Translations under genes and position numbers: made by a program
Assembly: GCA_000004985.1 (NCBI GenBank)
Contig: GG738858.1
DNA from: Naegleria gruberi
Taxonomy: Eukaryota
DNA length: 64,000 nucleotides
Strand: one strand, 5' to 3'
Shown here: piece by piece, positions 13,377 through 58,937 of the stretch
How the letters are laid out: each line of letters begins with the position of its first letter
How positions within the stretch are numbered: the first letter of the stretch is position 1
Notes under the pieces: model-generated
What the model saw: the letters and a program-made list of their open reading frames with translations, nothing else
Databases searched by the model: none
What the model was told of the DNA's origin: nothing

Positions 13377-14186
13377 CTACACATAAAGCTCTGTACAGGC
13401 TTCCAAGAATTGATCAAAAGTAAAAGTAGCTTGTCCGTTTCTGTAAAAGTCTTTTGGTTGGAAAATATTTCTGACAATACCAACATAAACACAAAGTTCA
13501 ATGTATCCATCAAAATTTAAAGATCCCTTTTTTTGTGTATCAACAGTTTGGAATATCTTTTGCAACACAATTGGTGAAATTCTGTAGCCTGACTGAGCAA
13601 GTGCTCGTGAGATTTCATCAAAAGATAAACTTCCAGACTTGTCAGTATCTACAAACTCAAATCCTTGCTTCATTTGAAGTAAATATTGATGTAATTGCAT
13701 AAATTCCTCAAAATCAATTTCAGCATTATTATTCCTGTCAAACATTTTAATTAATCTTTTTGCACCTGTCAAAATTCTTGTACCTCATTCAATTAATAAA
13801 GACTTACATCTTTCACTGAAGACTTTTCCTGTAAATTCAGATCCTGGTTGAGTGAGTGCTTTTTGAAGCTCTATCCAAGTAATTTTTCCAGATCTATCCA
13901 AATCAACAGCATCAAAAAACGGTCTAAGTGGGTGAGATTGCATTTGTGGTTGATAAATACCATATTGTGATTGTTGATGGTTTCCGTATTGTTGTGGTTG
14001 CTGTTGATAACCTCCTACTTGTGGTTGCTGTGGTGGTTGATTGTAACCTCCTACTTGTGGTTGTTGATAACCACCATATTGTGGTGGAGGTTGTTGGTAA
14101 CCGCCATATTGTGGAGGTTGTTGATAGCCTCCTGTCTGTTGATAACCTTGAGGTGTGCCTTGTGGAGCTCTAAAGCTTTGATTCAT
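13377..14186 (-). CDS. Penta-EF-hand (ALG-2/peflin-like) calcium-binding protein
   Basis: N-terminal GGYQQPPQY repeats followed by EF-hands (DLDRSGKITWIELQ, DTDKSGSLSFDEI); 2 exons with a 43-nt intron near 13773-13815. Confidence 0.8.
13960..14165 (-). repeat. In-frame coding tandem repeat (GGYQQPPQ units) inside the PEF gene
   Basis: Direct repeats of ggttgctgttgataacctcctacttgtggtt-like units visible in the DNA. Confidence 0.6.
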
Positions 14187-43233: not shown

Positions 43234-44348
43234 ATGAATCTTCTTCTGAGTCGCTTGAAGTTATTGTTGTTCGCTAAGGCAACTTTTGTATTCAACTTGT
43301 TGGGAATTGTTTTTCTCGTCCTTACCTATAAACCTTACTGCTCTGATAATGGTAAGTTATTCGGATCAGATTTAATTTATTTAAAACAATTAAAGCACAA
43401 GGATCATCACTCTTTAAAAAAGTTTGTGTGCCTTGCCCTGAAAATTCTCTCTGCAGTTTCCGTAAAGTGATTGCATGTTCATATGGATACAGCTTTAGAC
43501 CTGAAAATCAAATTTGCATCAAGGATAGCAAGCAATCTCTTGAAGCCCATCAACTCTCTCTTCGTGCTCAAAGATTTATTGAAGAATCAGCCTTCCGATA
43601 TGAATGTATTGGTGATAAGAATGCTTCTTCTATGATTAGTGAAGATGAATTGTTTGAATATTCAATCTCTGAAACAACAGGATCAGAAACCTATTTGAAC
43701 AAATTATTTGATGAAACATTGTCATTGATGATGAAACATTCAAAGGTTTATCAAATTGCAACTGATGGATCCCAAAATTATTATTCATTCAAGTTCCAAA
43801 GTCTTGGTGCTTGTTTGTTGGATACTTATGAATTCACTAGAGAAGCAGATCCTTCCTATAAGAAGAAGGCAACAATTGTTTCAAGAACTAAGGCTGCAAT
43901 CCCTTCAACATCCTCTAATGATGTTGTTCCTTCTGAAAAACTCCAAAGTTTGGAACAAGAAAAGAAGGAATTGAACAATCAACTCAAACAAACCAAATCT
44001 GATATGAACAAATTGGAAAGAGAAAAGATCTTGTTGGACAATCAACTCAAACAAGATAAGTCGGACAAGGAAAAGTTAGCAAAAGAAAAGGCTTCTTTGG
44101 AAGCTCAATTGAATAAGGTTGTTAAGAGTTCAGGAGAAGAATCATCCAAAAAGGCTGAGGAATTAAGATCTGAATTGGAAAAGAAGAAACAAGAATATGA
44201 TGCTTTAATTGAAGAAGAAAGAGCTAAAGCCATCAAGAAACAACAAGCTCTAGAAAATGAAATTAAACAACTCAAAGAGCTCAAGACCAAGTTAGAAGCT
44301 GAAGTTAAAGCAATTAACACTAAGAAAGAATCTGATGATTACTTTTAA
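43234..44348 (+). CDS. Membrane-anchored coiled-coil protein
   Basis: N-terminal hydrophobic segment then heptad-rich K/E repeats (KKELNNQLKQTKSDMNKLEREKILLDNQLKQDKSDKEKLAKEK); probable short intron after the first exon. Confidence 0.45.
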
Positions 44349-52522: not shown

Positions 52523-54727
52523 TTACATTTCAAAGGTTTCTCTGTGAATGTGAAAATGAACACCACTTTCTTTGGCAACTTTTCTGGAGGCATTGTAGAC
52601 ATCGATATTCATTTGATTTGGACCACAAACAATGATTGCAGCGCTGTTATCAAAGCATCCAACTGTTTCTGATATTAAAGTGAGATATTCTACAAAGTTA
52701 GGTCTTGAATTATAGTGAACTCGATTATTGTAAGCATCTGATGAGTTGATTTTCAAAGAATTTGATGCAGAAGAGGTTACGTAAAAGGATTGTTTCACAT
52801 TCGAATACCTTTCGAGTAGTGATGGGAACATAGTCATGAGGTTTTCATCTTTCATTGTCCAAATAACAAAGATATTCTTTTGTAATGCGTGTTTTGAGTT
52901 ATTGGTCAACTCTTCAAATATTGCATTAATTGGAGTCACTCCAATTCCACCAGCAATCAATACAACATTCGAATAAGAATTGACATCAAGAGATAACTTT
53001 CCATAAGGACCTTCAACTCGTGCAAATATTGATGAAGCACAACATTTTCTCTTGACTGCAAAATCTGCAACATCTTTCGACCATCCCTTTCCATTATTTT
53101 TCACATGGCAAGTAAATTCAACGCTCTGAGGTAGCTTTTCATAGCTGCTGATTGTTAATGGATGTGATTGGAAGAGTGAAACTCCTGGAATGCAAACATG
53201 GACAAACTTGGCCATTCCCAAGCTTTCAGTTGACCACATGCCAAGGTTTGATTTCTCAAAAACAATCTTTGTCACTTGGCACTTTTCATCATATTCCATT
53301 TTGACAACCTTTGTTGGAAGAACATAACCAAAAACGAAACGAAGTAAATAGTCAACTAGTAGCAAACCGATCGCAACACCAAGAACTGGCAATGTTCTTT
53401 CCCAACCTCTTGCATGAATTGAAGAGAAAACCAAAACAACAGGAGCCAAGATGACATGAACAACCTTGAATAGTTCCCAACACTTTCGTCTGATTATTTC
53501 AATTGAGAATAAACTCATAATGACCATGGCAATCCATGCTATTGTTCCAAACAAGATATATCCATTAGCTCTCACACTGACAAGTCTTTCCAGATTTCCT
53601 TTCATTCCCATTGGTATGGCCATGAATATTCCATGGAGTGTGGTTACAAGGAGAGTCAACAAGGAACACCACTTGTGATATTTGATTGCTCTTTCGAAAG
53701 AGATACCAAATATAAAGACAAATGCTGAGTATCTTGTGATTGGTAGGATGGTTGTTGTAAGAGTAATGACACTTGCGTAACCAAACGCTTTCCCAATTTT
53801 GGATAAAATTGGTGAAGAGTTGTTGAAATAGCCGAAACAAAACCAGACAGAAGTAAGCATGAGATGAATGATAATGAGTGTAATTTCACCAATGGTCAAC
53901 TCTAAAATGGGATTCAACCACGAACCAATAAATTCGTTTCTAATCAAATTTGAAAATTTTGTGTGAAAAACTAAACTGATGAAGAAGTTCTTTTCCTTCC
54001 TTGAAATGAACACATAGGACATTCCAGCTAGGGTCATTAAAAGTGCCACAGAACCTGTTGCAATCAGATGGAACTGTATCAATGGTTGTTTAATCAAGTT
54101 TAGGATACCAACATGAGTCATTAAATTAATGTTGAATTGACCATATGAAGAATGAACTTTTGTGACATCAATTGAGTTGGAATTGATTGCCCAACTTATT
54201 CCCACAGTTGCATTTCTTATTGGTTTGTCTGCCAGAACATCACCTGTATCAACCTTTCGAATAAATTTCAATGTAGTTACCCCATTCACAAATGAACCTG
54301 TGACTTGCAAAATATCATTGGTACCTCCAAATATCGAATCATTCTTTGGAATTGATTTACCAGGCATCCAATCATCATAAAGAATTGGCAAATTATTCTC
54401 CTGGTCAAAGAATCCAATAAAACAATCGGCTTGATTCATTCCAGTCTTGTTAAAATCTAAACCAATCGAAAGCCATCCACGAGTTTTAGCCACTATGGCC
54501 ATCTCGATAATGTCATCACCTTGTATAATTCCTGTTTGCTGAGTGTGAAATTTCCAATAGAAACTTAGCATATCTGTTTGGACACTTGATGGATATTCAT
54601 TGGTAGACACAGTGATAGTGTTCATGTCTGAGAGGATGTTTGCAATGAGCATGCATAGTGATATGAGAAGGAGGACTAATTGTTGAACATTCCATGAAAG
54701 ATTTCTTCTGCAACTTGTAGATGACAT
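52523..54727 (-). CDS. NOX/ferric-reductase-type transmembrane oxidoreductase with N-terminal extracellular DOMON-like domain
   Basis: Signal peptide plus ~200-aa DOMON-like segment (WLSIGLDFNKTGMNQADCFIGFF); heme-binding His pairs in TM helices; FAD motif HPLTISS; NADPH motif VVLIAGGIGVTP. Confidence 0.75.
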   Translation of the reverse strand: MSSTSCRRNLSWNVQQLVLLLISLCMLIANILSDMNTITVSTNEYPSSVQTDMLSFYWKFHTQQTGIIQGDDIIEMAIVAKTRGWLSIGLDFNKTGMNQADCFIGFFDQENNLPILYDDWMPGKSIPKNDSIFGGTNDILQVTGSFVNGVTTLKFIRKVDTGDVLADKPIRNATVGISWAINSNSIDVTKVHSSYGQFNINLMTHVGILNLIKQPLIQFHLIATGSVALLMTLAGMSYVFISRKEKNFFISLVFHTKFSNLIRNEFIGSWLNPILELTIGEITLIIIHLMLTSVWFCFGYFNNSSPILSKIGKAFGYASVITLTTTILPITRYSAFVFIFGISFERAIKYHKWCSLLTLLVTTLHGIFMAIPMGMKGNLERLVSVRANGYILFGTIAWIAMVIMSLFSIEIIRRKCWELFKVVHVILAPVVLVFSSIHARGWERTLPVLGVAIGLLLVDYLLRFVFGYVLPTKVVKMEYDEKCQVTKIVFEKSNLGMWSTESLGMAKFVHVCIPGVSLFQSHPLTISSYEKLPQSVEFTCHVKNNGKGWSKDVADFAVKRKCCASSIFARVEGPYGKLSLDVNSYSNVVLIAGGIGVTPINAIFEELTNNSKHALQKNIFVIWTMKDENLMTMFPSLLERYSNVKQSFYVTSSASNSLKINSSDAYNNRVHYNSRPNFVEYLTLISETVGCFDNSAAIIVCGPNQMNIDVYNASRKVAKESGVHFHIHRETFEM

Positions 54728-55016
54728 TGTGTTGTTTCGTATGGTTTTGTTTGGGTTTTTTCAAAGTGGAGTAATGATATTAAAGGGTCAAAAAACCAAA
54801 TTCTTTTTTAATAAGAATGCAATAAACTAAAGCTTTCGTCTGGAGAATTTAAACAATTTTCACAGATTTTGAGAATTGTAAGGAGGCCGCTTTTGTAATT
54901 CCTCCAGATTTTTAGATGGATTTTTGTTGAGTGGAAATATTGAGTTGTTACTAGAGGCATGAAAGTTCTACAAATGGAGTTCCATGATTATTAAATAAGT
55001 TGTAGAAACTGTATTC

Positions 55017-56489
55017 GAAATTCTAAGTTTGGACAAAAAGTGTTTCGTGCAAGTTACATGGTCATAAATTAAACCTAACTGGGATTCATACGGATTCCAT
55101 GGTATTGAAATTTCCTTAATGGGAAGTCTACAGTTTGTTTGTCAACTATGAGTACGGACTGCATGACAAGGTCAACTTACAATTGGTTCCTCAACACTTT
55201 TAAACAAATTCCATTTTATTAATCACAAAGCTTACAATCTAACATGTTTCAGTGCACAAAATAATCTCTGTCAGAAAAATAAGCTTACTGGTACAGTTAT
55301 ATCTGCATACCAAATCAATTAATTTGGACGGTTGATATAGAACACAATTATGAGAGAACCAATAGAAAGTATGAATATTTGCAAGACCAGATACACAAAT
55401 CCATTTAGAATTTTAAAAAGATATTTTCTGTTTATCCGACTACACACCAATAAATACGAAAATAATGAGCTTTATTCTACACGCGCAATATATGATGTAA
55501 ACAACTTTGACATCATACCCATTCCACTTGAACTGTTTCAAAGAAATTTCATGAAATGCATACAGTCTTTTAAGAATTCAAGTTTGACGCCTCCTGTCCC
55601 TTTACCAATTTTAACCTGTAATTTGCACAAACCTAAATGGTACTTTTTGAGATAATTAAAAATGTGTCCTTGGATACGGTTAGAAAATAGGAAACCCATG
55701 CCATTTCATTTTCATGAATACTATAAAGGTTTTTTATAATGGAGTTTTAAAAGTAATTCAAGTTTGGACAAAAAGTGTTTCGTGTAAGTTACATGATCAT
55801 AAATTAAACCTAACTGGGATTCACACGGATTCCATGGTATTGAAATTTCCTTACTGGGAAGTCTACTGTTTGTTTGTCAACTGAGTACGGACTGCATGAC
55901 AAGGTCAACTTACAATTGGTTCCTCAACAATTTTAAACAAATTCCATTTTATTAATCACATAGCTTACAATCTAACATGTTTCAGTGCACAAAATAATCT
56001 CTGTCAGAAAAAAAAGCTTACTGGTACAGTTATATCTGCATACCAAATCAATTAATTTGGACGGTTGATATAGAACACAATTATGAGAGAACCAATAGAA
56101 AGTATGAATATTTGCAAGACCAGATACACAAATCCATTTAGAATTTTAAAAAGATATTTTCTGTTTATCCGACTACACACCAATAAATACGAAAATAATG
56201 AGCTTTATTCTACACGTGCCATATATGATGTAAACAACTTTGACATCATACCCATTCCACTTGAACTGTTTCAAAGAAATTTCATGAAATGCATACAGTC
56301 TTTTAAGAATTCAAGTTTGACGCCTCCTGTCCCTTTACCAATTTTAACCTGTAATTTGCACAAACCTAAATGGTACTTTTTGAGATAATTAAAAATGTGT
56401 CCTTGGATACGGTTAGAAAATAGGAAACCCATGCCATTTCATTTTCATGAATACTATAAAGGTTTTTTATAATGGAGTTTTAAAAGTAA
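55017..56489. repeat. Tandem direct duplication: 2 copies of a ~733-bp unit plus an 11-nt partial third start
   Basis: Copy 1 ~55017-55748, copy 2 ~55749-56482; each holds an identical 101-aa ORF (55350..55655, 56083..56388); junction motif aattcaagttt. Confidence 0.9.
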
Positions 56490-56539
56490 TTCAAGTTTAC
56501 AACCGGATGACATCCAGGTTACAATAAAATTAAAAAAAA

Positions 56540-57288
56540 ATGAAACAAGCAATCAAGCAACTCATTCGCACTTCCAAATCTTGTAAATTTTCTCCTCTTG
56601 CATCTACAAGTACATGCTTGTCAAGTACAGTGTCGATGACATCATCATCATTGAATAATATTTCTCGCAATTTTCATTCCGATCTTATTCATGAAGCCTT
56701 GCAAGAAAATTCCGAACAAGCACAAAAAACAACACACTATGCTACAACATCACTCGGAAAAACAACCAAAACACCAACAATATTCTATCAACGATCACCT
56801 GAGGAATGGGTTAAATTATTTAAATTGAGACAAGAATATGGAATTATTGGTCATATGGGATTTAGAATTGTAGATATTCCAAAAGGTGAGTTTGAATTAA
56901 AATTATATTGATGGAAGTTTGTTAAATATTGGTGGAAAAAGAGGGTGAATTGATTGCTGAAATGACAGCTTCTCAATTCCACATGGCTCCAAATCAATAC
57001 ATGCATGCTGCTTCGATTGTGTTTTTGGCTGATACTGCTGCTGGATTTGGATGCTATTGTAATTTACCAAGTACACATCACAAATTTACAACAATTGAAT
57101 TGAAATCCAATTTTATTTCATCATCAAAGGTTGGAAAACGTGTGGTTTGTAGAGCTCAATTAGTTCATGCTGGTAAATCAACTCAAGTGTGGGATGCTCT
57201 TGTTTTTGAAGATGAATTGGATAGTGGAAAATTGATGGCTACCTTTAGATGCACCCAAATTGTAATGGATTCTAGAGATAAACAATAA
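56540..57288 (+). CDS. Hotdog-fold acyl-CoA thioesterase (THEM2/PaaI-like), probably mitochondrial, 2 exons
   Basis: Exon 1 56540..56885 (...HMGFRIVDIPKG) joined across a 56-nt intron (56886..56941) to EGELIAEMTASQFHMAPNQYMHAASIVFLADTAAG...; S/T-rich presequence-like N-terminus. Confidence 0.65.
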
Positions 57289-57378
57289 CAGAGCAGCTCA
57301 GTTTGAAAATAAATCAATAGAAACCAGATTATTGAAACAGGTAATCTAATTCAATAGTAAGATTTTAAGGAAGTGCAT

Positions 57379-57496
57379 GGCTACGGCCATATCACGATGA
57401 AAGCACCTCATCCCGTCCGATTTGAGAAGTTAAGCATCGTCGAGCCACATCAGTACTGAGGTTGGAGACAACTTGGGAACCTGTGGTGCTGTAGTC
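57379..57496 (+). rRNA. 5S ribosomal RNA
   Basis: GGCTACGGCCATATCACGATGAAAGCACC...CCCGTCCGAT...AGTTAAGC...GGTTGGAGACAAC...GTGCTGTAGTC; 5'/3' helix I complementarity; ~118 nt; followed by TTTTT. Confidence 0.9.
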
Positions 57497-57501
57497 TTTT
57501 T
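57497..57501 (+). terminator. Pol III T-run terminator of the 5S gene
   Basis: TTTTT immediately after the 5S 3' end. Confidence 0.7.
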
Positions 57502-57528
57502 ACTTCATAGTCAATAGTCAACCAATAA

Positions 57529-58818
57529 ATGATGTGCAAGGTTTTTTACAAAATAAAAAAAATGTCTTTACAACCTCTCAAAGAAACCATCACAATAGGA
57601 CTTATAGGGGATTATTCTTATTTTGCTGAACGATTTTTCAAGCAATTTAAACTAATTTCAAAATCCAGAACCATCAATTTCGATCACATTGTTTCCGATA
57701 CGAGTAAATTAATTCAATTTGTGAGCATTGCACCTTTTCAATGCTCCATCACAAATATGAACAAGGCTTTGGTAGTCTCGGATTATGCTATTATAATTGT
57801 AGGAACTAATGTTGATGAGGATATCATGAAAAAACGATTAGTAGATTGTATTCGAATGGTGAATTATTCGTTAATGGATAGAATTTTATTGGTGGTGGAT
57901 GATTATAGGAATGGTAAATATGATGATGATAGAGGTTACGATTGGATTAGAGAAGTGATTAGAAAGGAATCAATGGTTGAATTTACCTATGATATATTAT
58001 ATTGGAATTCATTTGACAAATTAAATGATTGGATCAAGTCGTTGCCTGTTAAAAAGGATATTGAACGATTGGCTTCTCAACCTGTAAGAGTGCGAATGTT
58101 GCAAACTGTTTATGCTTATGGTAGAAAGTATAGGCAGTTTAGTTATTGTCTTTTTAAAGTATTAAGTGGAATAGTTCATCAAGGTCAGGACATTTGTTTT
58201 AATACCAACAATGGAGAAAAAAAATTTAAAGTGAATGGCCACTATAATTACTCAGCTCTATCTAATAATATTGAAAGGCCAAAAGTATTTCTACCAGGTC
58301 AAATATTCTGTGTTGCCAATTGTTTAATGGAATTGATTCCTGAAGATAGTTGTACGGAGTATAAACACTTTATTAGTGGAAATTACTACTCTGAAATGAC
58401 CAAGAAAATTAAGGTAGACTCTTTTTGGATTGAATATACTCATTTCGGCTCAAACAATATCAGTAAGGAAATATTTGTAAATAGAATATGTTTGATTTTT
58501 TGCAACTCGAAACTATGTGGACGAATAGAACGAATAAAAAATTCTGAAGGAAAGGGAATGAGAATTGAGATTAAGGTGTTTGACAGGGTTCAATCAGGGC
58601 ACGACAGGTTATTTTCTCAACATGGCTTCCTAACAACATTCGAAAAGAGTTTCCAATTTGGAAGGGTTTTACTAGGTAATAGAAAGGAAATGATTGGCTT
58701 TGGAAAAGTAATATCAGTAATTTATCAAGACATGGACACGAATACCTTGCTTATTGAACATCCCATAAGCTTATTTTCAAAAATTCCAAAGCACTTAAAA
58801 GATATTCATATTGTGTAA
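57529..58818 (+). CDS. Hypothetical protein, possibly a degenerate translational-GTPase (EF-Tu/eIF2-gamma-like) fold lacking canonical GTP-binding motifs
   Basis: 429-aa ORF; GLIGDYSYFAERF at the P-loop position, IIIVGTNVDED at the NKxD position, then beta-barrel-like segments (GQIFCVANCL, GRIERIKNSEGKGMRIEIKVFD); tentative. Confidence 0.45.
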   Translation: MMCKVFYKIKKMSLQPLKETITIGLIGDYSYFAERFFKQFKLISKSRTINFDHIVSDTSKLIQFVSIAPFQCSITNMNKALVVSDYAIIIVGTNVDEDIMKKRLVDCIRMVNYSLMDRILLVVDDYRNGKYDDDRGYDWIREVIRKESMVEFTYDILYWNSFDKLNDWIKSLPVKKDIERLASQPVRVRMLQTVYAYGRKYRQFSYCLFKVLSGIVHQGQDICFNTNNGEKKFKVNGHYNYSALSNNIERPKVFLPGQIFCVANCLMELIPEDSCTEYKHFISGNYYSEMTKKIKVDSFWIEYTHFGSNNISKEIFVNRICLIFCNSKLCGRIERIKNSEGKGMRIEIKVFDRVQSGHDRLFSQHGFLTTFEKSFQFGRVLLGNRKEMIGFGKVISVIYQDMDTNTLLIEHPISLFSKIPKHLKDIHIV

Positions 58819-58854
58819 TGTTATTATCTAAGAGTTAATTAAGCCAAAAGGATT

Positions 58855-58937
58855 TGCCAGCGGTGGGGTTCGAACCCACGAACCCATTCGGGATAAGATC
58901 TTAAGTCTTACGCATTTGACCACTCTGCTACGCGGGC
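58855..58937 (-). tRNA. tRNA-Leu (anticodon UAA), type II with long variable arm
   Basis: Minus strand reads GCCCGCGTAGCAGAGTGGTCAAATGCGTAAGACTTAAGATCTTATCCCGAATGGGTTCGTGGGTTCGAACCCCACCGCTGGCA: D-arm, anticodon loop CTTAAGA, variable stem-loop CCCGAATGGG, T-arm GTGGGTTCGAACCCCAC; one C-T mismatch in the acceptor stem. Confidence 0.85.

What the first reader, a model, noticed from the sequence alone, without database searches (positions are those of the whole stretch)
55017..56489. 733-bp tandem duplication carrying a small ORF whose only inter-copy differences are synonymous
Two head-to-tail copies (~55017-55748 and ~55749-56482) are followed by an 11-nt partial third start (aattcaagttt), a motif that also recurs inside each unit. 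The 5' third of the unit differs at about 10 positions, including a 2-bp indel (~3% divergence), while the 3' two-thirds differ at only two. That 3' part contains a 101-aa ORF (MREPIESMNICKTRY...) and the ~90 bp downstream of it. Both differences are third-position synonymous changes (cgc/cgt Arg, gca/gcc Ala), so the two ORF copies encode identical proteins. This may be purifying selection on a small lineage-specific protein, a recent gene-conversion tract, or chance (n=2). The repeat lies immediately upstream of the Pol III gene cluster.
Basis: seen in the sequence. Interest (0 to 1): 0.55.

Follow-up and report, generated by a model that had tools for sequence, protein, structure and literature searches.

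The report
Noncoding tandem duplication in Naegleria
A 0.73-kb stretch of noncoding spacer DNA between two Naegleria gruberi genes was copied head to tail at a short 11-12-base repeat, and the 101-codon reading frame it carries looks like a chance frame rather than a gene, so the finding is real but ordinary.

Summary
Two head-to-tail copies (55019-55754, 736 bp; 55755-56487, 733 bp) are followed by an 11-nt third start (56488-56498). They differ by 10 substitutions plus a 1-bp and a 2-bp indel. Ten of these 12 differences lie in the first 262 bp. The other two (55484, 55487) are synonymous third-position changes in a duplicated 101-aa ORF.

The window is Naegleria gruberi nuclear DNA. The repeat fills the spacer between a divergently oriented DOMON-NADPH-oxidase gene and a thioesterase gene.

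The ORF does not behave like a gene:
- Its codon and dicodon scores fall with spurious ORFs.
- It shows no GC periodicity across codon positions.
- It has no credible homologue among 1.84 billion representative proteins, and no Pfam, PDB or PHROG match.
- No public gene model covers it, and its predicted fold has pLDDT 43.

The low-divergence tract also covers 166 bp outside the ORF with zero differences, so selection on a protein does not explain it.

Best reading: a neutral tandem duplication formed at the direct repeat AATTC(T)AAGTTT. The 3' two-thirds were either homogenised later by gene conversion or inherited from unevenly diverged alleles. Two synonymous changes out of two is compatible with chance (p about 0.04-0.07, or about 0.2-0.27 if they are one event). 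Interest is low.

The parts
55019..55754 (+). Tandem copy 1 (736 bp). It begins with AATTCTAAGTTT.
55755..56487 (+). Tandem copy 2 (733 bp). It begins with AATTCAAGTTT and is 98.2% identical to copy 1.
56488..56498 (+). Partial third start, AATTCAAGTTT. This is the right-hand copy of the short direct repeat that bounds the duplicated segment; unique sequence follows it.
55019..55030 (+). Left-hand copy of the boundary direct repeat, AATTCTAAGTTT (one extra T).
55019..55280 (.). Divergent 5' part of the unit (paired with 55755-56013). It carries 8 substitutions plus a 1-bp and a 2-bp indel, about 3.8% divergence. In the longest open minus-strand frame here, four of the five substitutions it spans change the amino acid.
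55281..55754 (.). Low-divergence tract (paired with 56014-56487). It has only two differences, at 55484 and 55487. It covers the ORF plus 69 bp upstream and 99 bp downstream of it. It is a candidate gene-conversion or homogenised tract.
55350..55655 (+). 101-codon ORF, copy 1. Most likely a chance ORF in noncoding DNA.
56083..56388 (+). 101-codon ORF, copy 2. Its product is identical to that of copy 1.
55575..55585 (+). Internal exact copy of AATTCAAGTTT in unit 1. About 24 nt around it are 83% like the end of the unit.
56308..56318 (+). Internal exact copy of AATTCAAGTTT in unit 2.
52523..54727 (-). Left flanking gene: DOMON + ferric-reductase/NADPH-oxidase. Residues 34-733 are 100% identical to a Naegleria gruberi predicted protein. 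Its start codon faces the repeat.
56540..57288 (+). Right flanking gene: 4HBT/hotdog thioesterase, seen as two ORFs in different frames and so probably split by one short intron. Its ATG lies 41 bp after the end of the repeat.

Best explanation
This is a neutral, fairly recent tandem duplication of noncoding spacer DNA in the Naegleria gruberi nuclear genome. The ancestral spacer between the divergently transcribed NADPH-oxidase and thioesterase genes held one roughly 0.73-kb segment bounded by two copies of the short direct repeat AATTC(T)AAGTTT. Unequal exchange or replication slippage between those two copies gave the structure repeat-body-repeat-body-repeat (inferred from the anatomy). The junction copy is a hybrid: its left context matches the unit end and its right context matches the unit start. 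The 101-codon ORF is a chance open frame that was simply copied along. The mosaic divergence (about 3.8% in the 5' 262 bp, about 0.4% in the 3' 474 bp) reflects recombination, not selection on a protein. Either a later gene-conversion or unequal-exchange event homogenised the 3' two-thirds, or the two copies came from two alleles that were already unevenly diverged. The two remaining differences, 3 nt apart, are synonymous by chance.
For: Shown:
- The repeat structure, the boundary 11-12-mer at all three unit starts and the hybrid junction.
- The organism and the flanking genes.
- This is the only copy pair in the 64 kb.

The ORF looks noncoding:
- Codon log-odds is -0.018 per codon. Real-gene 101-codon windows average +0.233 (SD 0.123, first percentile +0.015), and spurious ORFs average -0.04.
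- Dicodon score is -0.145. Held-out exon-like ORFs score +0.07 to +0.79, and ORFs lying out of frame inside real genes score -0.9 to 0.0.
- GC at codon positions 1/2/3 is 0.30/0.33/0.33, against 0.42/0.34/0.29 in the window's genes. Unit GC is 0.317, against 0.28-0.35 in the window's other noncoding gaps of 300 bp or more.
- Four ORFs of 102-112 aa with negative scores lie out of frame inside real genes in this same window.
- A random 734-bp sequence of this composition contains an ATG ORF of at least 101 aa 2.4-2.6% of the time.

No sign of a protein family or a gene model:
- No homologue in the word-indexed 5.8-billion-protein search.
- One artefactual hit in the exhaustive search of 1.84 billion representatives.
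- No match in Pfam, PHROGs or PDB sequences.
- No relative in viral or metagenome contigs.
- No public protein matches any open segment of at least 35 aa in the spacer.
- AlphaFold2 mean pLDDT is 42.7.

The divergence pattern:
- The change-point test gives p = 0.003-0.045.
- Zero differences in 166 non-ORF bp inside the tract has P = 0.002-0.006 at the 5' rate.
- Divergence in ORF versus non-ORF sequence within the tract gives Fisher p = 0.54.
- P(both changes synonymous) is 0.04-0.07.
Against: - The spacer is the longest stretch without coding-like signal in the window. It is about 1.77 kb, or about 1.04 kb with one copy removed, against a median gap of 123 bp and a next-longest gap of 746 bp. 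Something unannotated could therefore reside there.
- A 101-codon ORF in 734 bp is moderately unlikely by chance on its own (about 2.5%).
- Both differences in the ORF are synonymous.
- A young or de novo gene would not be expected to show host codon bias or homologues, so the negative tests do not exclude one.
- No transcript, read-level or population data could be examined. The rest of the N. gruberi genome was not available to search for further copies.
- The internal third occurrence of the 11-mer (expected about 0.001-0.002 by my own composition estimate) is not explained by a single duplication event.
Confidence: 0.7

Rival explanations
1. The 101-aa ORF is a real, lineage-specific (orphan or de novo) small protein gene that was recently duplicated, and purifying selection keeps both copies identical at the protein level.
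For: - The ORF is intact in both copies and the only two differences are synonymous.
- A chance ORF of this length in 734 bp has p about 0.025.
- The spacer is unusually long for this compact genome.
Against: - Codon, dicodon and GC-periodicity profiles are those of noncoding DNA.
- No homologue, family or confident fold.
- Absent from public N. gruberi gene models.
- Conservation is equally complete in 166 bp outside the ORF.
- With only two events, or perhaps one, the synonymous pattern has p about 0.04-0.27.
Confidence: 0.06
2. The 3' two-thirds of the unit carry a functional noncoding element, such as an unannotated RNA gene or a shared regulatory region of the divergent gene pair. Selection on that element keeps both copies alike.
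For: - Low divergence spans ORF and non-ORF sequence alike.
- This is the longest noncoding gap in the window.
- The unit end lies only 41 bp from the thioesterase ATG.
Against: - No Rfam family matches, even at E <= 1.
- Whole-unit folding z-scores are -1.3 and -1.1.
- The best of 70 local 120-nt windows has z = -2.0, as expected by chance.
- Selection would have to act equally on both copies of a fresh duplicate.
- No comparative data are available.
Confidence: 0.08
3. The unit is a copy, or a solo LTR or fragment, of a dispersed repetitive or mobile element that happens to sit in tandem here.
For: - About 5% of the N. gruberi genome is repeats (PMC9928731).
- The unit is flanked by short direct repeats.
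- From general knowledge of Ty3 and the Dictyostelium TRE elements, some retroelements insert near Pol III genes. Here 5S rRNA and tRNA-Leu genes lie 0.9-2.4 kb away.
Against: - No other copy in the 64 kb.
- No terminal inverted repeats.
- No transposase, reverse-transcriptase or other family hit in any frame.
- The structure repeat-body-repeat-body-repeat is that of a local duplication, not of two insertions.
Confidence: 0.05
4. The second copy is an assembly artefact: two alleles of a heterozygous single-copy segment were placed in tandem.
For: The copies differ by SNPs and small indels at about 1.6%, which could be an allelic level of divergence. The window matches the public N. gruberi reference gene model exactly.
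Against: The junction is a clean hybrid at a short direct repeat, with no gap or Ns, and the sequence is contiguous. Reads could not be examined, so this was not tested.
Confidence: 0.07

Closest known systems
Tandem duplication formed at short direct repeats (microhomology-mediated unequal exchange or replication slippage)
   Same: Two head-to-tail copies. The same 11-12-nt repeat sits at the left end, at the junction and at the right end. The junction copy has the left context of the unit end and the right context of the unit start. No foreign sequence is inserted.
   Different: The left repeat copy has one extra T. The same 11-mer also occurs once inside each unit, which a single event does not require.
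Gene conversion / concerted evolution between tandem paralogous segments
   Same: A contiguous run of at least 474 bp of near identity abuts a 262-bp block at about 3.8% divergence within one repeat pair. The break is supported by a change-point test and is independent of ORF boundaries.
   Different: With only two copies and no outgroup, the direction and even the occurrence of conversion cannot be shown. A mosaic inherited from two alleles at the time of duplication gives the same picture.
Orphan / de novo small protein genes
   Same: A 101-codon ATG-to-stop ORF with no homologue, in a spacer, intact in two copies.
   Different: No coding signature, no annotation, no fold, and no ORF-specific conservation. 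Expression is untested.

Membership tests
Microhomology-bounded tandem duplication | Two adjacent head-to-tail copies of one segment | tested here: met
   98.2% identity over 734 columns, with offsets of 733-736 bp.
Microhomology-bounded tandem duplication | The same short direct repeat at the left end, the junction and the right end, with a hybrid junction | tested here: met
   AATTCTAAGTTT at 55019; AATTCAAGTTT at 55755 and 56488. The alignment of the three boundaries shows the junction sharing its left context with the right boundary and its right context with the left boundary.
Microhomology-bounded tandem duplication | A single-copy ancestral state at the orthologous locus | not testable with these tools
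   The only related locus retrieved (N. fowleri, L001) shares the oxidase gene but not the neighbourhood. No other N. gruberi-clade DNA was available.
Gene-conversion tract between repeats | Divergence along the repeat pair that is non-uniform, with a contiguous low-divergence block | tested here: met
   Change-point permutation p = 0.003-0.045, with the best cut after 55280 in three of the four counting schemes.
Gene-conversion tract between repeats | Shared derived states in the tract relative to an outgroup | not testable with these tools
   No outgroup sequence for this spacer.
Protein-coding gene of N. gruberi | Codon and dicodon usage and GC1>GC2>GC3 periodicity like the genome's genes | tested here: not met
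   Codon score -0.018 against +0.233 (SD 0.123). Dicodon score -0.145 against +0.07 to +0.79. GC1/2/3 of 0.30/0.33/0.33 against 0.42/0.34/0.29.
Protein-coding gene of N. gruberi | A homologue, a family assignment or a public gene model | tested here: not met
   Searches were all negative. The single HMMER hit, P0009, is a translated tandem satellite whose score is the sum of seven 20-26-bit matches.
Protein-coding gene of N. gruberi | Conservation specific to the ORF (fewer non-synonymous than synonymous changes, and ORF more conserved than flanks) | tested here: inconclusive
   2 of 2 changes are synonymous (p 0.04-0.07, or about 0.2-0.27 as one event). The flanks inside the tract are at least as conserved (0 differences in 166 bp; Fisher p = 0.54).
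Protein-coding gene of N. gruberi | Transcription and translation | not testable with these tools
   No expression data are accessible here.
Known structured RNA family (Rfam) | A covariance-model match or unusual thermodynamic stability | tested here: not met
   No Rfam hit at E <= 1 over 54700-57600 other than the 5S rRNA gene. Folding z-scores of -1.3 and -1.1, with a local minimum of -2.0.
Transposable element / LTR | Terminal inverted repeats or LTR termini, element-encoded protein remnants, multiple dispersed copies | tested here: inconclusive
   No terminal inverted repeats, no protein remnant and no other copy in the 64 kb. Genome-wide copy number could not be tested.

The most novel reading that the evidence does not exclude
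The 101-codon ORF is a newborn (de novo) Naegleria-specific small protein gene caught just after tandem duplication, with both copies still under protein-level constraint. Alternatively, the conserved 3' tract is an undescribed RNA gene occupying the largest noncoding gap of this compact region.
Probability: 0.08. Interest if true: 0.4.

Novelty: new member of a known kind. Interest (0 to 1): 0.12.

Why it matters
As it stands it matters little. It is one more local tandem duplication in a protist genome, and a reminder that an intact duplicated ORF with only synonymous differences is weak evidence for a gene when there are just two changes. It has modest use as a worked example of a duplication formed at a short direct repeat, possibly with later homogenisation, in a heterolobosean. 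If the ORF were shown to be translated, it would be a clean case of a very young orphan gene with a datable duplication.

Tried and rejected
- Exact-sequence look-ups of the ORF and of three neighbouring or related N. gruberi proteins found no record, so no N. gruberi DNA beyond the window could be fetched.
- The N. fowleri oxidase locus (L001) was fetched to compare the spacer. It shares only the oxidase gene, so no orthologous spacer is available.
- The exhaustive HMMER search gave one hit (P0009, E = 1e-6). I rejected it as homology. P0009 is a translated 52-aa tandem satellite, and the score is the sum of seven copies of one 38-residue, 20-26-bit match.
- Viral-contig and metagenome scans with the protein, and a metagenome scan with a 21-nt DNA word, found nothing.
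- A concatenate of all open segments of at least 35 aa in the spacer matched no public protein. Pfam and PHROG scans of those segments gave only noise.
- Rfam scans, global and local RNA folding, and the bacterial promoter/terminator scan (not applicable to a eukaryote) gave nothing.
- A search for an older internal periodicity in the unit found only a 24-nt, 83% match around the 11-mer (E about 0.5).
- Tandem Repeats Finder misses the array because its longest period is 500.
- The 2010 N. gruberi genome paper is not held in the library.

Full report
**1. What is in the sequence**

The window is AT-rich (31-38% GC) and densely packed with long ORFs. The ORF at 52523-54727 (minus strand) encodes a DOMON + ferric-reductase/NADPH-oxidase protein. 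Its residues 34-733 are 100% identical (700/700) to a 'predicted protein [Naegleria gruberi]'. The window is therefore nuclear DNA of Naegleria gruberi.

The reported repeat lies in the spacer between this gene and a 4HBT/hotdog thioesterase gene. The oxidase start codon faces the repeat. The thioesterase gene (56540-57288, plus strand) is seen as two ORFs in different frames, so it probably has one short intron. A 5S rRNA gene (57379-57497, +) and a tRNA-Leu(UAA) gene (58855-58937, -) lie further downstream. The repeat is therefore near the two Pol III genes but not immediately upstream of them.

**2. The duplication**

Reading the sequence, gapped alignment, BLASTN against the window and the motif search give this structure:
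- Copy 1 is 55019-55754 (736 bp).
- Copy 2 is 55755-56487 (733 bp).
- An 11-nt third start, AATTCAAGTTT, is at 56488-56498, followed by unique sequence.

The copies differ by ten substitutions (55050, 55061, 55089, 55119, 55132, 55197, 55228, 55280, 55484, 55487), a 1-bp indel (55024) and a 2-bp indel (55147-55148). No other copy exists in the 64 kb, and this is the only large repeat in the window. Tandem Repeats Finder does not report it because its longest period is 500.

**3. How the duplication formed (inferred from anatomy)**

Aligning the left boundary, the junction and the right boundary shows one short direct repeat at all three places. It reads AATTCTAAGTTT on the left and AATTCAAGTTT at the junction and on the right. 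The junction shares its upstream context (…GGAGTTTTAAAAGT) with the right boundary and its downstream context (GGACAAAAAGTG…) with the left boundary.

This repeat-body-repeat-body-repeat layout is the expected product of unequal exchange or replication slippage between two short direct repeats that flanked a single ancestral segment.

One detail is unexplained. The exact 11-mer also occurs once inside each unit (55575, 56308) and nowhere else in the window. From base composition I estimate about 0.001-0.002 expected internal matches. Only about 24 nt around it resemble the unit end (83%, E about 0.5). It may be the trace of an older event at the same motif.

**4. Is the ORF a gene?**

The ORF (55350-55655 and 56083-56388) gives identical 101-aa products. 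Every test I could run places it with noncoding sequence.

*Composition.*
- Its codon log-odds, trained on the window's 20 long ORFs, is -0.018 per codon. Real 101-codon windows average +0.233 (SD 0.123, first percentile +0.015). Spurious ORFs nested in real genes average -0.04.
- Its dicodon score is -0.145. ORFs held out of training that do not overlap the long training ORFs mostly score +0.07 to +0.79. ORFs lying out of frame inside real genes score -0.9 to 0.0.
- The window's genes show the usual GC1 > GC2 > GC3 gradient (0.42/0.34/0.29). The ORF is flat (0.30/0.33/0.33). The unit's GC (0.317) lies within the 0.28-0.35 range of the window's other noncoding gaps of 300 bp or more.

*How surprising is the length?*
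- A random 734-bp sequence of the same composition contains an ATG ORF of at least 101 aa in 2.4-2.6% of simulations.
- Four spurious ORFs of 102-112 aa are visible in this same window.

*Similarity searches.*
- No candidate in the word-indexed search of 5.8 billion proteins, which includes the N. gruberi proteome.
- No Pfam, PHROG or PDB-sequence match.
- No relative in viral or metagenome contigs, and no DNA match for a 21-nt word.
- The exhaustive HMMER search of 1.84 billion representatives returned one protein, P0009 (E = 1e-6). This is the translation of a 52-aa tandem satellite. Its score is the sum of seven copies of one 38-residue match worth 20-26 bits each. I do not accept it as homology.
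- A concatenate of every open segment of at least 35 aa in the spacer, in all frames, matched no public protein. No public gene model therefore uses this DNA. Pfam on those segments gave only noise.

*Structure.* AlphaFold2 on the single sequence gave mean pLDDT 42.7 with no residue above 70. This is uninformative at best.

**5. The divergence pattern**

Ten of the twelve differences fall in the first 262 bp (about 3.8%) and two in the remaining 474 bp (about 0.4%). A likelihood-ratio change-point test with permutation, which corrects for the free choice of breakpoint, gives p = 0.003-0.045 depending on how events are counted. The best cut falls after 55280 in three of the four counting schemes. 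The mosaic is probably real.

It does not track the ORF:
- The low-divergence tract includes 69 bp upstream and 99 bp downstream of the ORF, with no differences at all. At the 5' rate, 5-6 differences would be expected (P of zero = 0.002-0.006).
- Within the tract, ORF and non-ORF sequence do not differ (Fisher p = 0.54).
- In the divergent 5' part, the longest open minus-strand frame shows four amino-acid changes from five substitutions, as expected for noncoding DNA.

The two differences inside the ORF are only 3 nt apart (ACACGCGCAATA versus ACACGTGCCATA). The chance that two independent substitutions in this ORF are both synonymous is 0.04-0.07. If they are one clustered event, the chance is about 0.20-0.27.

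Protein-level purifying selection is therefore neither needed nor sufficient to explain the pattern. Two neutral accounts remain, and I cannot separate them:
- A conversion or unequal-exchange event homogenised the 3' two-thirds after an older duplication.
- The duplication arose between two alleles that were already unevenly diverged.

**6. Other possibilities examined**

*A structured RNA gene.* There is no Rfam match even at E <= 1. Whole-unit folding z-scores are -1.3 and -1.1. The best of 70 local 120-nt windows reaches only z = -2.0.

*A mobile element.* There are no terminal inverted repeats, no protein remnants and no other copy in the window. Genome-wide copy number could not be tested, because no N. 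gruberi DNA beyond the window could be retrieved.

*An orthologous spacer for comparison.* The N. fowleri oxidase locus is not syntenic.

*An assembly artefact.* This cannot be excluded without reads. The clean hybrid junction argues against it.

One fact keeps a small door open for an unannotated function. The spacer is the longest stretch without coding-like signal in the window. It is about 1.77 kb, or about 1.04 kb with one copy removed. The median gap is 123 bp and the next-longest is 746 bp.

**7. Comparison with known kinds, and verdict**

The feature meets the tested defining features of a tandem duplication formed at short direct repeats. It has the pattern expected of partial homogenisation between tandem paralogous segments, although conversion itself is not demonstrable without an outgroup. 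It fails the tested criteria for an N. gruberi protein-coding gene. Expression remains untested.

It is a new instance of a well-known kind of event and of low interest. Public long-read, RNA-seq and chromatin datasets for strain NEG-M exist (PMC12344493) and would settle the remaining questions quickly.

Noticed in passing
window 54629-54727 (-): The public N. gruberi model of the DOMON-NADPH-oxidase gene (P0001, 700 aa) starts at Met34 of the ORF. The 33 extra N-terminal residues (MSSTSCRRNLSWNVQQLVLLLISLCMLIANILS) include a hydrophobic, signal-peptide-like stretch, so the public model may be truncated at its N-terminus.
   Followed up: partly
window 57379-58937: Pol III and Pol II genes are packed very tightly. 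The 5S rRNA gene (57379-57497, +) starts 90 bp after the thioesterase stop and ends 31 bp before the ATG of a 429-aa ORF (57529-58818) that has no Pfam match. The tRNA-Leu(UAA) gene (58855-58937, -) lies 36 bp after that ORF's stop.
   Followed up: no
window 54761-56533: The oxidase-thioesterase spacer is the longest stretch without coding-like signal in the 64 kb, even after one repeat copy is removed (about 1.04 kb, against a median gap of 123 bp and a next-longest gap of 746 bp). No reason for its length was found.
   Followed up: partly
window 55575-55585 and 56308-56318: The boundary 11-mer AATTCAAGTTT recurs exactly once inside each unit and nowhere else in the window. About 24 nt around it are 83% like the unit end. 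It may be a trace of an earlier event at the same motif.
   Followed up: partly
protein P0009 (library hit, not in the window): A 434-aa 'protein' in the representative library is the translation of a 52-aa (156-bp) tandem satellite. It yields an inflated E-value (1e-6) against the ORF by summing seven weak repeats.
   Followed up: yes
window 43950-44090 (+): A 63-bp tandem repeat (about 1.9 copies, 71-75% identity) lies within the span of the ORF at 43428-44348. Its unit is a multiple of three and encodes a Lys/Glu-rich, coiled-coil-like sequence.
   Followed up: no
window 13944-14126: A cluster of overlapping 24-36-bp tandem repeats (TTGTGGTTGATAACC-like) lies in a region of short exon-like ORFs on the minus strand.
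   Followed up: no
window 52523-54727 and proteins P0002-P0007: The DOMON-NADPH-oxidase has a 65%-identical paralogue in N. gruberi, homologues at 50-52% identity in N. fowleri and in a JGI metagenome, and three at 35-44% in Willaertia magna. It appears to be a small heterolobosean gene family.
   Followed up: no
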